From the IMG/VR virus record IMGVR_UViG_3300043409_001462, positions 109,385-173,384 of that record: a stretch of DNA of 64,000 nt; one strand, given 5' to 3'. The translations under genes and the position numbers were made by a program. The DNA is from a virus. Shown here one piece after another: positions 1,358-4,836 of this stretch. Position 1 is the stretch's first letter. Each line of letters starts with the position of its first letter. The notes beneath the pieces were generated by a model. It saw only the letters and a list, made by a program, of their open reading frames with translations. It was not told the DNA's origin and did no database searches.

Positions 1358-1432
1358 GGTGCCTGAGTAGGACGGTAATGCGCAGGTCTGCAAAACCTTG
1401 AGAACCCAGTTCAACTCTGGGAGGCACCTCCA
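1358..1432 (+). tRNA. tRNA-Cys(GCA)
   Basis: Loop CTGCAAA, U73, CCA. Confidence 0.92.
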
Positions 1433-1610: not shown

Positions 1611-2207
1611 ATGATTAGCAAACATTTATTGAATGAATTGAATTATATTGTAATTGATAGTGGTGTAAAGATGGAAGGTAATTTGTTTTACTACCATCAG
1701 ACGACACCATCTGATAATCTTTACGAACCTTTCGAAAAGAAACGTCAGAACCTACAGCTATTGGCTAAGAAGTTTGATAACATTATGGAGATCGGTTTCA
1801 ATGCTGGCCATAGTGCTGCTTTGATGCTCGAAGCCAATCCTAATCTGTTCTTGGTTAGCATCGATATTGGTGAACATAGCTATGTTTCTTCATGCGGAAA
1901 GGCTATTCAATCTGCTTTCCCTGGAAGGCACCAGCTTATCATCAAGGATTCGAAGCTTATCACTCAGAAAGAAATTAGCTTCGCTCAAGCTGTCATCGTT
2001 GATGGTGGTCATGAATTTGATGATTGCTCTGCAGACTTGGAGTTGTGTAAAACGTACTGCGCGCCAGGAACAGTTATCGTTATCGACGATATTGATTTGA
2101 ATGGAGTGCAGCTTGCGTATAGGCATCACTCTAGAAGTTTGTCAGTATGGAAAGATATTGAAACAATATATAACCAAGCTTTCTTCACATTAAACTCGCC
2201 CGAGTAG
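1611..2207 (+). CDS. Class I SAM-dependent methyltransferase (Methyltransf_24-like)
   Basis: MEIGFNAGHS, SIDIG, VDGGH, IVIDD motifs; stop codon lies inside the following tRNA-Leu. Confidence 0.8.
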   Translation: MISKHLLNELNYIVIDSGVKMEGNLFYYHQTTPSDNLYEPFEKKRQNLQLLAKKFDNIMEIGFNAGHSAALMLEANPNLFLVSIDIGEHSYVSSCGKAIQSAFPGRHQLIIKDSKLITQKEISFAQAVIVDGGHEFDDCSADLELCKTYCAPGTVIVIDDIDLNGVQLAYRHHSRSLSVWKDIETIYNQAFFTLNSPE

Positions 2208-2274
2208 TCCAATTGGCAGAGGCGCTGGTCTTAGAAACCAGATGTTGGGGGTTCAAATCCCTCCTCGGGCACCA
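2198..2274 (+). tRNA. tRNA-Leu(TAG), short variable loop
   Basis: Cloverleaf, loop CTTAGAA, A73, 5-nt variable loop, CCA. Confidence 0.9.
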
Positions 2275-2277
2275 TTT

Positions 2278-2391
2278 TAGGTTGTGTTCAGCATACAATG
2301 GATGAACCAGTCGGTCGGGTGTTCGAGTCACCCCAGGAGCTCCTTGCTTCTGTAGCTCAGTGGTAGAGCAACTGCCAAAAAGTACAACCTG
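2278..2391 (+). ncRNA. Array unit 1: YrlA-type Y-RNA-like RNA with circularly permuted tRNA domain
   Basis: Terminal stem TAGGTTGTG/TACAACCTG; inside, T arm (2317-2333), closed acceptor stem (2334-2352), D arm (2355-2369), anticodon-stem halves CAGT/ACTG. Confidence 0.85.
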
Positions 2392-2404
2392 TTGAAAATA
2401 GTGC

Positions 2405-2433
2405 TTGACTTATCCGTAGATAAAGCGTATTAT
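2405..2433 (+). promoter_or_regulatory. Sigma70-type promoter for array units 2-6 and the DUF2828 gene
   Basis: TTGACT-17-TATTAT, with the AGTGC upstream of -35 also seen at 13471 and 14548. Confidence 0.75.
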
Positions 2434-2896: not shown

Positions 2897-4327
2897 ATGA
2901 ATACCTTTGTAAATGCCGTTGTTAATCAGGAAGCTCGTACCGAAAATGGTATGAAGGCTCGCCAGTCTACTGCTAATGCATTGACTGATCTGTTCTTCAA
3001 GATCGGTGCTATGCGTGGTCAGAATGTAATTCCTGCTTGGACTGCTGCTCGTGCTCATGATACTTTGCTTGCATCTCGTATCGCTCTTTGGGCACGTGAT
3101 GTTCGTGGTGGTGCTGGTGAACGTAAAATCTTCCGTGACATTTTAGTTGATCTTGCTTCAGCTGATCCTCATCGTGGTGTGGCTCTTGGTCGTAAGATTC
3201 CAGAGCTTGGTCGTTGGGATGACTTCCTTGTGTTCGTTGGTACCCCTCTTGAGGAGTATGCGTTCGAAACTATCCGCGAAGCTCTCGAAGCTGGTAATGG
3301 TCTCTGTGCAAAGTGGATGCCTCGTCAAGGTGAAACAGCTGTAAAGCTTCGTAAGTACCTTGGTTGGACTCCTAAGTTCTACCGAAAGCGTCTGGTTGAA
3401 TTGACCAAGGTTGTCGAAACTCAGATGTGCGCTAAGGACTGGGATAACATCAACTTCAACCATGTTCCTTCGGTTGCTTCTTCTCGTTACAAGAAGGCAT
3501 TCGCTCGTCATACTGACAAGTACAAGGAATGGACTGCGGCTCTTGTTTCTACTGATCCAGAGGTGGCTAAGTCTGTTAAGGTCAATGCTGGTGCGGTTTA
3601 TCCTTACGATGTGTTGAAGGGTGTGATTAATCATTATGGGCGTTATGATCAATCTAACTTGAATCATATCCTTGCTCAGTGGGAAGCTTTGCCTAACTTC
3701 GTTGGTAATGCTAACATTCTTCCGCTTGTTGACGTTTCTGGTTCAATGACTTCGAAGGCTGGTGGTTATCAGTCAAAGTCAGAAGTAACCTGCCTTGATG
3801 TTGCAGTTTCTCTTGGTCTGTATCTCGCAGACAAAAACAAGGGTAAGTTCAAGGATACTTTCTTGACCTTCTCTAGCGATCCTCAGCTGCTTCATCTTCG
3901 CGGTAACATCCTCGATAAGGTAAAGCAGATGGTATCTTCAAAGTGGGAAATGAACACCAATTTGCATCGTGCGTTGGATAAGATCCTTCGCACCGCGATT
4001 GAAGGTAACGTTCCTCAGTCAGAAATGCCAGGTGCATTGTTGATCCTTTCTGATATGCAGTTTGATTCTTGCACTCGTCACGATGACTCTGCTATGGAAA
4101 TGATTAAGCGTAAGTATGTTGATGCTGGTTACAATGTACCTAACATTGTGTTCTGGAATCTCAATGCTCACGACAATGTTCCTGTCAAGTATGACACTCG
4201 TGGTGCTGCTCTTGTTTCTGGTTTCTCACCTTCTATCGTTAAGGCTGTTCTGCAGGCTGAGATGGATAACTTTACGCCAGAAGCTATCATGATGCAAACC
4301 ATTATGAACCCACGATATGACTACTAA
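2897..4327 (+). CDS. DUF2828-family protein with C-terminal vWA domain (putatively Ro60/TROVE-like)
   Basis: ARDVRGGAGER, GRWDD, AKWMPR, MIDAS DVSGSM, LSDMQFD, IVFWNL, VSGFS motifs; GGAGA RBS; strong highly-expressed codon bias. Confidence 0.8.
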   Translation: MNTFVNAVVNQEARTENGMKARQSTANALTDLFFKIGAMRGQNVIPAWTAARAHDTLLASRIALWARDVRGGAGERKIFRDILVDLASADPHRGVALGRKIPELGRWDDFLVFVGTPLEEYAFETIREALEAGNGLCAKWMPRQGETAVKLRKYLGWTPKFYRKRLVELTKVVETQMCAKDWDNINFNHVPSVASSRYKKAFARHTDKYKEWTAALVSTDPEVAKSVKVNAGAVYPYDVLKGVINHYGRYDQSNLNHILAQWEALPNFVGNANILPLVDVSGSMTSKAGGYQSKSEVTCLDVAVSLGLYLADKNKGKFKDTFLTFSSDPQLLHLRGNILDKVKQMVSSKWEMNTNLHRALDKILRTAIEGNVPQSEMPGALLILSDMQFDSCTRHDDSAMEMIKRKYVDAGYNVPNIVFWNLNAHDNVPVKYDTRGAALVSGFSPSIVKAVLQAEMDNFTPEAIMMQTIMNPRYDY

Positions 4328-4706: not shown

Positions 4707-4760
4707 ATCCCCGCCATCCCGATACGTCGGTTGGCACCTCCAGCTTCAGGGCTGGAGAAT

Positions 4761-4836
4761 GCTCCTCTGGTATAGCTGGTGCGTACGCTCGTCTGAAGAA
4801 CGAGAGGATGCGGTTCGATTCCGTGGGGGAGCACCA
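4761..4836 (+). tRNA. tRNA-Phe(GAA)
   Basis: Loop CTGAAGA, T arm, CCA. Confidence 0.9.

What the first reader, a model, noticed from the sequence alone, without database searches (positions are those of the whole stretch)
2278..2391. Unit 1 is a clean circularly permuted tRNA (YrlA architecture)
Seen, 5' to 3': anticodon-stem 3' half CAGT (2308-2311), variable loop CGGTC, T arm GGGTG-TTCGAGT-CACCC, acceptor 3' strand CAGGAGC, 5-nt loop TCCTT (discriminator-CC-like), acceptor 5' strand GCTTCTG, TA, D arm GCTC-AGTGGTA-GAGC, A, anticodon-stem 5' half ACTG. The anticodon loop is replaced by the link to the terminal handle stem. Established: this matches bacterial YrlA Y RNAs. tRNA finders would miss it or call it a fragment. 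It follows tRNA-Leu directly, so it is probably made from the tRNA operon rather than from the 2405 promoter.
Basis: partly seen in the sequence, partly recalled or inferred. Interest (0 to 1): 0.8.

Follow-up and report, generated by a model that had tools for sequence, protein, structure and literature searches.

The report
Phage tRNA-shaped Y-like RNA
This stretch of an uncultured 173-kb phage encodes a small RNA built like a tRNA whose acceptor end is sealed and whose anticodon end opens into a conserved "handle". It is most likely the RNA partner of the Ro60-shaped protein encoded 500 bases downstream, so it is a divergent relative of the known bacterial and phage Y RNAs, not a new kind of thing.

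Summary
Window 2279-2390 is a 7-bp terminal stem enclosing a rotated tRNA: 4-bp anticodon-like stem, 5-nt variable loop, T arm, 7-bp acceptor hairpin, U8-A9, D arm.

- **tRNA finders.** ARAGORN and the Rfam tRNA model miss it. Rotated back with a 7-nt loop added, ARAGORN calls a full 75-nt tRNA. 17 chimeras of neighbouring tRNAs give none.
- **Conservation.** 22 distinct relatives beside the same gene in IMG/VR contigs keep all five helices: 97.4% of cells paired, 23 of 27 pairs with double changes. The tertiary 15:48 pair also covaries.
- **Cultured phages.** Mycobacteriophage Whirlwind, Enterococcus phage EFDG1 and a Felix O1-type coliphage carry the same RNA.
- **Partner gene.** It is Pfam DUF2828/DUF7788, not TROVE. 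Its model matches Ro60 structures over both domains (Z 13-18).
- **YrlA membership.** The architecture is YrlA's, but strict membership fails: RF02553 gives 39.1 bits against a cut-off of 69, although the published ET08 phage YrlA gives only 37.4. The GNCGAA motif is absent, replaced by a family-specific CAGCA handle.
- **Other first-reader points.** The "discriminator-CC" loop is not conserved. Origin in the tRNA operon is supported indirectly.

This scan has already found this RNA family on other DNA. Verdict: a real new variant of a known kind, of moderate interest.

The parts
2198..2274 (+). tRNA-Leu(UAG) with encoded CCA. Its 3' end lies 4 nt before the handle of unit 1.
   Evidence: ARAGORN; Rfam tRNA 60.6 bits
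2275..2278 (+). UUUU leader. It belongs to the conserved UUUUAG lead-in shared by the units of the array, and is a likely processing spacer (inferred).
   Evidence: Sequence; columns 5-8 are U in 74-92% of 90 distinct units
2279..2285 (+). Handle, 5' strand (AGGUUGU).
   Evidence: Pairs with 2384-2390. 5 of 7 pairs show double changes and 100% of cells are paired in 22 homologues
2287..2293 (+). Conserved unpaired motif UUCAGCA (CAGCA at 2289-2293), the family signature next to the 5' strand of the handle. Proposed protein-binding site (inferred).
   Evidence: C 94%, A 82%, G 96%, C 93%, A 97% over 90 distinct units. Also present in Whirlwind, EFDG1 and the Felix O1-type phage
2294..2307 (+). 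Variable linker between the handle motif and the tRNA-like body.
   Evidence: Poorly conserved columns
2308..2311 (+). Anticodon-stem-like helix, 3' half (CAGU).
   Evidence: Pairs with 2371-2374. Covaries to CGUU/AACG in L013
2312..2316 (+). Variable loop CGGUC. C2316 corresponds to position 48.
   Evidence: The 15:48 pair covaries in 20 of 22 homologues
2317..2333 (+). T arm: 5-bp stem and loop UUCGAGU.
   Evidence: 4 of 5 pairs show double changes and 100% are paired. Loop is UUCGANU in 19 of 22 (all 22 begin UUC)
2334..2352 (+). Acceptor-like hairpin: 7-bp stem (2334-2340 with 2346-2352) closed by the loop UCCUU (2341-2345).
   Evidence: 7 of 7 pairs show double changes and 95.4% are paired. 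The loop sequence is not conserved
2353..2354 (+). U8-A9 equivalents.
   Evidence: U in 21 of 22 and A in 19 of 22
2355..2369 (+). D arm: GCUC, AGUGGUA, GAGC, with A14, G15 and G18G19.
   Evidence: Same as the D arm of the published ET08 YrlA
2370..2374 (+). A26 equivalent and the anticodon-stem-like helix, 5' half (ACUG).
2375..2383 (+). A-rich linker CCAAAAAGU before the 3' strand of the handle.
   Evidence: A in 69-82% at four successive columns over 90 units
2384..2390 (+). Handle, 3' strand (ACAACCU).
2391..2395 (+). Conserved 3' tail GUUGA.
   Evidence: G 96%, U 93%, U 88% over 90 units
2405..2433 (+). Sigma-70-like promoter TTGACT-17-TATTAT, downstream of unit 1. It would drive units 2-6 and the protein gene, not unit 1.
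   Evidence: Consensus scan gives 10 of 12. Hexamers are conserved and the spacer varies in L002-L004
2897..4327 (+). Gene for a 476-aa DUF2828/DUF7788 protein (PHROG 850, 'RNA-binding protein'), predicted to have the Ro60 fold. Proposed protein partner.
   Evidence: Pfam; PHROGs; AF2 model with pLDDT 68.9; Foldseek and VIA top ten rows are all Ro60, Z 12-18

Best explanation
Unit 1 (about 2275-2395, + strand) is a genuine small non-coding RNA of the Y-RNA kind with YrlA architecture.

**Shown or supported by comparison**
1. It folds into a 7-bp terminal handle plus an L-shaped tRNA body. The acceptor end is sealed by a short loop. The anticodon arm is opened and continues into the handle.
2. 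It belongs to a large phage RNA family whose members share one handle: AGG-N4 paired with N4-CCU, an unpaired CAGCA motif after the 5' strand, an A-rich run before the 3' strand, and a GUU tail.
3. Members of this family lie beside genes of one protein family (DUF2828/DUF7788) that is predicted to fold like Ro60.

**Inferred**
4. The RNA is transcribed with the tRNA cluster and released by the processing that trims tRNA-Leu.
5. The handle and CAGCA motif bind the Ro60-like ring protein, as Y RNA stems bind Ro60.
6. The tRNA body presents a tRNA elbow and a 12-bp acceptor/T minihelix to a tRNA-recognising factor, so the RNA acts as a tether, gate or decoy. It is probably modified like a tRNA (T54, pseudouridine 55, D). 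With its 7-bp acceptor stem it may be cut by RNase P, as M. smegmatis YrlA is.

The identity of the factor and the biological purpose are unknown. The purpose could be tRNA quality control for the phage's own tRNAs, or interference with host tRNA-directed enzymes.
For: **Anatomy.** Verified. The rotated sequence is called a 75-nt tRNA by ARAGORN, while the native order gives none. Tandem-half chimeras give 0 of 17.

**Conservation and covariation.**
- My covariance model R1 finds 28 related loci with full-length hits of 58 bits or more. All are on the strand of the DUF2828 gene.
- On 22 distinct sequences, 97.4% of cells are paired and 23 of 27 pairs show double changes. Slid controls give 36-50%.
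- Tertiary nucleotides are kept and 15:48 covaries.

**Same RNA in cultured phages of three host phyla, beside the same gene.** Whirlwind 68.3 bits; EFDG1 75 and 47 bits; Felix O1-type 'allfine' 35 bits.

**Handle consensus.** Derived from 90 distinct units.

**Protein.**
- Pfam DUF2828 plus DUF7788.
- 711 cultured phage records carry a homologue. Some are annotated 'Ro-like RNA binding protein'.
- The AF2 model matches Ro60 chains over 355-394 residues, Z 12.2-18.0. All ten top rows are Ro60, above vWA-only rows at Z below 11.

**YrlA model.** 39.1 bits, E 2.8e-8 in the genome. The published phage YrlA of ET08 scores 37.4 bits.

**Transcription.** Unit 1 starts 4 nt after the tRNA-Leu CCA. 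A conserved promoter lies downstream. Homologues abut tRNAs in many relatives.

**Precedents.** YrlA is bound by Rsr, modified by TruB and DusA, and cut by RNase P when the acceptor stem has 7 bp (PMC4201824). Phage phiLo Ro60 binds two phage Y-like RNAs and host PNPase (PMC12135203).
Against: - No expression, end-mapping, binding or modification data exist for this RNA or any relative that I could find.
- The protein shows no sequence-level match to Ro60 (phmmer and profile search against PDB chains). No Pfam TROVE hit was found. The AF2 model is of middling confidence (pLDDT 68.9, pTM 0.60).
- The YrlA Ro-binding motif GNCGAAN0-1G is absent from the + strand of 2198-2896. Binding to the protein is therefore inferred from co-occurrence only.
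- The YrlA covariance model also gives weak hits on tandem tRNAs (21.5 bits at 28-142) and in 6 of 14 control genomes. Its hit alone is weak evidence.
- The alignment used for pair counts was fitted to my model, which leans towards the structure.
- The MFE fold of the single sequence misses the D arm and has only z = -2.5.
Confidence: 0.72

Rival explanations
1. It is a true orthologue of YrlA (Rfam RF02553): the same RNA family, merely diverged, and bound by a diverged Ro60. It would then be an ordinary new member, not a separate handle family.
For: - Full-length RF02553 hit of 39.1 bits.
- It meets the numerical criteria of Chen et al. 2014: E below 5e-5 in the genome, best hit, within 4 kb of and on the same strand as the Ro60-like gene, and not a tandem tRNA pair.
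- The published ET08 phage YrlA scores no better, at 37.4 bits, and has the same D arm.
- The protein has the Ro60 fold.
Against: - The score comes from the tRNA-like core. The handle region aligns with an 8-nt deletion and low posterior probability.
- GNCGAA is absent, while ET08 has a long GC-rich stem with GCCGAG and no CAGCA.
- The partner is a different Pfam family, and no TROVE gene is found in the genome.
- T-stem sequences vary freely here, whereas they are reported as conserved in YrlA.
- tRNA-like cores can arise repeatedly from tRNA genes. Chen et al. argue that YrlA and Yrn1 arose independently.
Confidence: 0.2
2. It is debris of the tRNA cluster: the 3' half of one decayed tRNA followed by the 5' half of the next, or a dead tRNA dimer, with no function of its own.
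For: It lies in a dense tRNA cluster. Tandem tRNAs are a known false positive of YrlA models (PMC4201824) and give 21.5 bits here.
Against: - The two 'halves' pair with each other through 7 bp of acceptor and 4 bp of anticodon-like stem, which unrelated neighbours do not do (0 of 17 chimeras).
- All helices, including the handle, covary across 22 relatives.
- The element is kept next to the same gene in phages of different host phyla.
Confidence: 0.02
3. It is a circularly permuted tRNA gene in the sense of Cyanidioschyzon merolae. The transcript would be circularised at the opened anticodon end and then opened at the acceptor loop, to give a working tRNA.
For: It has the same gene order as permuted tRNA genes (3' half, linker, 5' half). 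Wang et al. raise this possibility for YrlA. It has a 7-bp acceptor stem suited to RNase P.
Against: - There is no anticodon loop. Beyond the 4-bp stem the strands run into the CAGCA motif and the handle, which five neighbouring units with non-tRNA cargo also carry.
- No RtcB or Rnl2-type ligase gene was found in the phage genome.
- No splicing endonuclease of that kind is known in bacteria.
Confidence: 0.03
4. It is only a processing or stability element of the polycistronic tRNA transcript (a tRNA-shaped punctuation mark that directs RNase P or RNase E), with no protein partner.
For: It abuts tRNAs in many relatives. tRNA-like structures can direct RNase P cleavage elsewhere (established for mascRNA; my own knowledge).
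Against: - In several relatives it is not next to a tRNA but directly before the DUF2828 gene, for example L040 and L041, where it ends 10-12 nt before the start codon.
- The conserved handle and CAGCA motif are not needed for punctuation and are shared with non-tRNA units.
Confidence: 0.03

Closest known systems
YrlA Y RNAs of Salmonella Typhimurium, Mycobacterium smegmatis and mycobacteriophage ET08 (Chen et al. 2014, PMC4201824; structure PDB 6CU1, Wang et al. 2018; Rfam RF02553)
   Same: - Order of elements: variable region, T arm, closed acceptor-like hairpin, D arm, enclosed by paired 5' and 3' ends.
- Conserved U8, A14, G18G19 and T loop, and a covarying 15:48 pair.
- Encoded within 4 kb of a Ro60-shaped protein gene, on the same strand.
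- 7-bp acceptor stem, as in M. smegmatis YrlA.
- D arm the same as in ET08.
   Different: - No GNCGAAN0-1G motif. It has a CAGCA motif and a short AGG...CCU handle instead.
- The partner is DUF2828/DUF7788, not TROVE, whereas ET08 has a TROVE protein.
- T-stem sequence is free to vary.
- It is one of six handle-bearing units in an array.
- It scores below the Rfam cut-off, as ET08's YrlA also does.
Thermus phage phiLo Ro60 with Yrl1 and Yrl2 (PMC12135203; PDB 9KOP, 9L5Y)
   Same: A phage-encoded Ro60-shaped protein with phage-encoded Y-like RNAs just upstream of its gene. 9KOP and 9L5Y are the best structural matches of the window's protein (Z 18.0 and 16.6).
   Different: The phiLo RNAs were picked by a CGAA motif and a stem-bulge-stem shape, and are not described as tRNA mimics. 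The proteins share only 16-17% identity over the aligned residues.
Deinococcus radiodurans Yrn1 with Rsr and PNPase (RYPER)
   Same: The Y RNA is a two-module adaptor. A terminal stem binds the ring protein and the distal module, with tRNA-like features, binds an effector.
   Different: In Yrn1 the T and D elements are oriented differently and tRNA likeness is partial. No effector is known for the window's RNA.
Circularly permuted tRNA genes of Cyanidioschyzon merolae and some archaea
   Same: The gene order is 3' half, linker, 5' half, with the acceptor stem first made as a closed hairpin.
   Different: Those transcripts are rearranged into working tRNAs with an anticodon loop. Here no anticodon loop is encoded, and the opened end is a conserved protein-type handle.
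Class I RNAs of Dictyostelium (PMC7919456). The lead came from earlier notes of this scan.
   Same: At the level of architecture only: a short stem joining the 5' and 3' ends, a conserved unpaired motif next to the 5' strand of the stem, and a variable remainder.
   Different: I could not read the letters of their 11-nt motif in the held text. No Rfam match links them to this region. They are eukaryotic RNAs with a different known binding protein (Rnp1A). This is an untested lead, not a finding.

Membership tests
YrlA (Rfam RF02553; Chen et al. 2014) | T arm, closed acceptor-like hairpin and D arm in that order, enclosed by pairing of the 5' and 3' parts | tested here: met
   Sequence; CM alignment; covariation of all five helices; rotation test
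YrlA (Rfam RF02553; Chen et al. 2014) | Nucleotides for tRNA tertiary contacts, including a covarying Levitt pair (G15:C48 or A15:U48) | tested here: met
   U8 in 21 of 22, A14 in 21 of 22, T loop UUCGANU in 19 of 22 (all 22 begin UUC). 15:48 is G:C 14, A:U 4, U:A 2, other 2
YrlA (Rfam RF02553; Chen et al. 2014) | Score at or above the Rfam gathering threshold (69 bits) | tested here: not met
   39.1 bits. None of 20 related loci reaches it. The test is weak, because the published ET08 phage YrlA reaches only 37.4 bits
YrlA (Rfam RF02553; Chen et al. 2014) | GNCGAAN0-1G motif near the 5' end (the presumed Ro60 contact) | tested here: not met
   No + strand match between 2198 and 2896. UUCAGCA occupies that place
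YrlA (Rfam RF02553; Chen et al. 2014) | Encoded within 4 kb of a Ro60 (TROVE-domain) orthologue, on the same strand | tested here: inconclusive
   The gene lies 506 nt downstream on the same strand. Pfam gives DUF2828/DUF7788 and no TROVE, but the predicted fold matches Ro60 over both domains (Z 12-18)
YrlA (Rfam RF02553; Chen et al. 2014) | Strongly conserved T-stem and D-stem sequences (Wang et al. 2018) | tested here: not met
   The D stem GCUC/GAGC is mostly kept, but 4 of 5 T-stem pairs change on both sides among the 22 relatives
YrlA (Rfam RF02553; Chen et al. 2014) | Bound by the Ro60 orthologue in vivo; carries pseudouridine 55 and dihydrouridine | not testable with these tools
   Needs immunoprecipitation and modification mapping
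Canonical tRNA (Rfam RF00005) | Contiguous cloverleaf with free acceptor ends and an anticodon loop | tested here: not met
   There is no ARAGORN call and no RF00005 hit up to E 10 at 2275-2395. It becomes a tRNA call only after rotation and addition of a loop
Permuted tRNA genes (Cyanidioschyzon type) | The termini can be joined to give a 7-nt anticodon loop on a 5-bp stem | tested here: not met
   After 4 bp the strands continue into the shared handle motif, and C2307 faces C2375. The same handle carries non-tRNA cargo in other units
Phage handle RNAs beside DUF2828 genes (uncatalogued; defined here by model R1 and the consensus) | AGG-N4 / N4-CCU terminal stem, unpaired CAGCA after the 5' strand, A-rich run before the 3' strand, GUU tail | tested here: met
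   All of these elements are present at 2279-2395, against the consensus of 90 distinct units
Phage handle RNAs beside DUF2828 genes (uncatalogued; defined here by model R1 and the consensus) | Lies beside a DUF2828/DUF7788 gene, on the same strand | tested here: met
   Window; 28 related loci with hits of 58 bits or more; Whirlwind, EFDG1 and the Felix O1-type phage. The family was collected through that gene, so this row is partly circular

The most novel reading that the evidence does not exclude
The sealed acceptor hairpin is opened by host RNase P and given a CCA end, as happens to M. smegmatis YrlA. The Ro60-like protein would then carry a two-piece, handle-tethered tRNA body with a real 3' end. 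This particle would serve the phage as bait or adaptor for host enzymes that attack or read the acceptor/elbow side of tRNAs, as a counter-measure to tRNA-directed host defence or a quality-control device for the phage's own large tRNA set. It would be part of an undescribed, widespread second kind of Ro/Y-RNA particle in phages.
Probability: 0.15. Interest if true: 0.8.

Novelty: new variant of a known kind. Interest (0 to 1): 0.5.

Why it matters
Y RNAs that mimic tRNA have been known since 2014, but what their tRNA-like module binds is still open.

- **A second lineage.** This RNA shows the same design (sealed acceptor, intact elbow, opened anticodon end) in a lineage with a different handle and a partner protein that only fold comparison links to Ro60.
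- **Wide spread, including cultured phages.** That lineage occurs in at least 360 IMG/VR contigs and 711 cultured phage records for the protein. The RNA itself is present in Whirlwind, EFDG1 and a Felix O1-type phage. These phages grow on laboratory hosts, so the open question of the effector of the tRNA-like module becomes testable by ordinary knock-out and pull-down work.
- **Annotation.** These elements are invisible to tRNA finders and fall below the Rfam cut-off, so they are unannotated in every record I looked at.

For unit 1 alone the result is confirmatory, not surprising.

Tried and rejected
- **Sequence searches of the protein against PDB chains.** phmmer and a profile of 23 sequences found no Ro60. 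Only fold comparison did.
- **blastn of 2190-2900 against cultured phages** matched only the tRNA-Leu.
- **Pfam searches of the phage genome** for RtcB, Rnl2-type RNA ligase, CCA-adding enzyme and TROVE all found nothing. No phage-encoded tRNA repair partner can be named. The record may also be incomplete for such purposes.
- **MFE folding of the single sequence** recovers the handle, T arm and acceptor hairpin. It replaces the D arm by another pairing and buries the CAGCA motif in a weak hairpin. I rejected this in favour of the covariation-supported structure.
- **'Discriminator-CC' reading of the loop** is rejected as a conserved feature.
- **Weak PreQ1, SAM-II and CAESAR hits** in unit 2 (E 0.58-6.7) are treated as chance.
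- **Literature I could not reach.** Supplementary tables of Chen et al. 2014 (their list of 22 phages) are not held, and two reviews are not held. I therefore could not check whether any DUF2828-type phage was already in their list. ET08, their figure example, is TROVE-type.
- **Dictyostelium Class I motif letters** could not be read.
- **Complex prediction** was not used, because it does not test protein-RNA binding.
Full report
**Setting.** The window is the last 64 kb of a 173,384-bp IMG/VR virus record. Its first 5.8 kb are a tRNA cluster: 18 ARAGORN tRNAs plus one more seen only by Rfam. The cluster is interspersed with small genes: a 2OG-Fe(II) oxygenase, a methyltransferase whose stop overlaps tRNA-Leu, and others. 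The finding lies directly after tRNA-Leu(UAG) (2198-2274). It sits about 500 nt upstream of a 476-aa gene (2897-4327), with five further short structured units in between.

**The observation.** The acceptor strands CAGGAGC and GCUUCUG form seven pairs (one G-U). CAGU and ACUG form four. AGGUUGU (2279-2285) pairs with ACAACCU (2384-2390). ARAGORN and the Rfam tRNA model report nothing here.

I then rotated the sequence back into tRNA order: 2346-2375, a 7-nt loop, 2307-2341, plus CCA. ARAGORN called a full-length 75-nt tRNA in all six constructs, and nothing in the native order.

The obvious artefact is the 3' half of one tRNA lying next to the 5' half of the next. Chen et al. name this as a false positive of YrlA models. 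I tested it by building the same kind of chimera from all 17 neighbouring tRNA pairs of the window. None was called.

**Conservation.**
- The downstream protein has at least 360 relatives in IMG/VR, and I fetched 80 loci.
- blastn found unit 1 homologues in ten of them.
- From these I built a covariance model, R1, with 27 base pairs. It finds full-length hits of 58-146 bits in 28 loci. All are on the strand of the protein gene. Tandem tRNAs give only local hits of 29-37 bits.
- On 22 distinct sequences, 97.4% of pair cells are standard pairs (shuffles 70.9%; partners slid by 1-3 columns 36-50%). 23 of 27 pairs show changes on both sides. All five helices covary: handle 5 of 7 pairs, anticodon-like stem 3 of 4, T stem 4 of 5, acceptor 7 of 7, D stem 4 of 4. 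This alignment was fitted to the model, which favours the structure, but the slid controls and the MAFFT alignment show the same compensations.
- The tertiary Levitt pair also covaries (G15:C48 14, A15:U48 4, U:A 2, exceptions 2). U8, A14 and the T loop are nearly invariant. This is the same argument Chen et al. used for an L-shaped fold of YrlA.
- The acceptor stem has 7 bp throughout. Its closing loop varies in sequence and length, so the 'discriminator-CC' reading holds only for the window and its two nearest relatives.

**The handle and the family.** The weaker R1 hits (30-50 bits, 70-110 nt) are units with other cargo. Over 90 distinct units the shared frame is:
- a UUUU lead-in;
- A-G-G-N-U-N-N paired with N-N-A-N-C-C-U;
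- an unpaired C-A-G-C-A (82-97% each) after the 5' strand;
- an A-rich run before the 3' strand;
- a G-U-U tail.

Unit 1 has all of these.

The same RNA, with this handle and a rotated tRNA, occurs in cultured phages beside the homologous gene:
- Mycobacteriophage Whirlwind, 68.3 bits, downstream of its 'Ro-like RNA binding protein'.
- Enterococcus phage EFDG1, two tandem copies of 75 and 47 bits upstream of its 'RNA-binding protein'.
- The Felix O1-type coliphage allfine, 35 bits in its tRNA cluster.

None of these RNAs is annotated in the records.

**The protein.**
- Pfam gives DUF2828 and DUF7788, not TROVE. PHROGs gives family 850, 'RNA-binding protein'.
- At least 7,992 relatives exist in the large protein collection, all with the same two domains.
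- 711 cultured phage records carry a homologue. The nearest is Synechococcus phage BUCT-ZZ01, at 48.5% identity.
- Sequence and profile searches against PDB chains do not reach Ro60.
- An AlphaFold2 model from 23 sequences is of middling confidence (pLDDT 68.9, pTM 0.60).
- Its best Foldseek matches are all Ro60: phage phiLo 9KOP and 9L5Y at E about 1e-7, Xenopus 2I91 and 1YVP, D. radiodurans 2NVO, and human.
- VIA-align gives Z 18.0 (394 residues, rmsd 4.3) down to 12.2 for ten Ro60 entries covering both the helical ring and the vWA domain. vWA-only matches start at Z 10.7.

I take the Ro60 fold as likely and homology as probable but not shown. The phage genome has no Pfam TROVE gene.

**Comparison with YrlA.**
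- Chen et al. 2014 describe YrlA as V, T, acceptor-like stem and D between paired ends, with a GNCGAAN0-1G motif near the 5' end. It is encoded within 4 kb of a TROVE Ro60. They report it in 254 bacteria and 22 phages.
- Wang et al. 2018 solved the structure and call such RNAs circularly permuted tRNAs with closed acceptor stems.
- Unit 1 has this architecture, and the Rfam model aligns to it end to end (39.1 bits).
- The score comes from the tRNA-like core, and the handle aligns poorly. The cut-off of 69 bits is not reached. GNCGAA is absent.

To calibrate, I searched mycobacteriophage ET08, the phage example in Figure 1 of Chen et al. It has a TROVE protein. Its YrlA, 260 nt upstream, reaches only 37.4 bits with RF02553, so the Rfam cut-off excludes even published phage YrlAs. 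Its handle is a long GC-rich stem with GCCGAG and no CAGCA. R1 matches only its core (46.3 bits).

There are thus two kinds of phage particle of the same design: TROVE with a GNCGAA-type stem, and DUF2828 with a CAGCA-type handle. Unit 1 belongs to the second kind. I therefore do not file it in RF02553, but I say it works like YrlA.

**How it is made.**
- Unit 1 starts 4 nt after the CCA of tRNA-Leu, with no promoter-like or terminator-like site between them.
- The TTGACT-17-TATTAT promoter at 2405-2433 lies after unit 1. It is conserved in the three closest relatives while its spacer varies. It can serve units 2-6 and the gene, but not unit 1.
- The homologue abuts the 3' end of a tRNA in L002 and L004 (Leu), L003 (Trp), L009 (Val), L044 (Ile), L052 and L057 (Phe) and L080 (Gly).
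- A tRNA follows the homologue directly in L018, L037 and L080.
- Elsewhere the homologue sits immediately before the protein gene (L040, L041).

Co-transcription with the tRNAs and release by tRNA end-processing is therefore the likely route in this phage. It is inferred, not shown.

**What it does.** By analogy with Y RNAs, the handle binds the ring protein and the tRNA body is the effector module. The body keeps the elbow and a 12-bp acceptor/T helix, but has no anticodon loop and no free 3' end. It can therefore engage enzymes that read the elbow or the acceptor/T helix (TruB, TrmA, Dus, RNase P, the CCA enzyme), but not anticodon readers. M. smegmatis YrlA, the one YrlA that Chen et al. 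report with a 7-bp stem, is cut by RNase P and receives CCA. The strictly kept 7 bp here make the same fate possible.

The phage encodes no RtcB, Rnl2-type ligase or CCA enzyme that I could find. Whether the particle gates the ring, tethers it to a host enzyme (as phiLo Ro60 and its RNAs do with PNPase) or acts as a decoy cannot be decided here.

**Earlier notes of this scan.** The same RNA family beside DUF2828 genes has been reported by this scan on other DNA many times. The word search returned 438 findings in at least 324 genomes. The eight listed included Felix O1-type, giant-virus and crAss-related cases. The six-unit array of this genome is the subject of separate notes. My tests were made independently and agree with those notes. 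A lead from them, a likeness of the handle to Dictyostelium Class I RNAs, holds at the level of architecture in the text of PMC7919456. I could not check the motif letters.

**Verdict.** Unit 1 is a real, conserved tRNA-mimicking Y-like RNA. It has the YrlA design but belongs to a distinct, uncatalogued handle family tied to DUF2828 Ro60-like proteins. It is a new variant of a known kind, of moderate interest by itself. The interest lies in the family and in the fact that cultured phages carry it.

Noticed in passing
L030:2374-2498, L040:2858-2983, L037:73-196, L041:2860-2985: In these relatives the rotated tRNA keeps a whole anticodon-arm-like hairpin with a 7-nt loop (CUUGUAA, CUUAUAA, CUUCUAA, CUGAAAA, which would read as anticodons UGU, UAU, UCU, GAA) just before the T arm. 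The break point is therefore at the D/anticodon junction, not in the anticodon loop as in the window.
   Followed up: partly
L023:2058-2113: A local Rfam tRNA hit (model positions 7-64 of 71, 45.9 bits) lies directly after the unit 1 homologue. It looks like a tRNA core without an acceptor stem, perhaps another kind of cargo.
   Followed up: no
L087:501-573 (Enterococcus phage EFDG1): A rotated tRNA-like element (CAGU..., T arm, 7-bp hairpin, D arm...ACUG) lies between tRNA-Ala and tRNA-Pro without the CAGCA handle. R1 gives a 27.2-bit local hit.
   Followed up: no
L018:1703-1776 and L044:3695-3766: tRNAs with a CUA anticodon (ARAGORN calls them 'tRNA-Pyl') in related phages; in L018 it follows the unit 1 homologue directly (L044's lies about 2.3 kb downstream). 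They could be amber suppressors.
   Followed up: no
L030:4619-4709, L037:4697-4787, L048:3877-3967, L052:494-583, L057:2084-2175, L080:2169-2264: Unusually long (90-96 nt) 'tRNA-Ile(UAU)' calls recur in related phages. Synechococcus phage BUCT-ZZ01 has Rfam tRNA hits of 113-114 nt at L083:4581-4693 and 4711-4824. These may have long variable arms or introns.
   Followed up: no
window 1358-1429: Rfam calls a tRNA (43.9 bits) between tRNA-Gln and tRNA-Gly that ARAGORN does not report.
   Followed up: no
window 2405-2433: The promoter-like TTGACT-17-TATTAT between units 1 and 2 is conserved in L002, L003 and L004, with hexamers kept and spacer changed. L013 has TTGACG...TATAAA.
   Followed up: partly
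window 1611-2207 and 2198-2274: The methyltransferase ORF (Pfam Methyltransf_24) ends 10 nt inside tRNA-Leu, so the mRNA and the tRNA share a transcript or overlap.
   Followed up: no
L085 (Listeria phage LMTA-94) 2501-4021 and 5349-6503: In this Listeria phage the DUF2828 gene lies 1.3 kb from a gene annotated 'tRNA-splicing ligase' (RtcB type). R1 found only a 16.9-bit hit there.
   Followed up: no
L093:1474-1598 (mycobacteriophage ET08): The published phage YrlA of ET08 scores only 37.4 bits with Rfam RF02553 (cut-off 69). The Rfam threshold therefore misses known phage YrlAs.
   Followed up: yes
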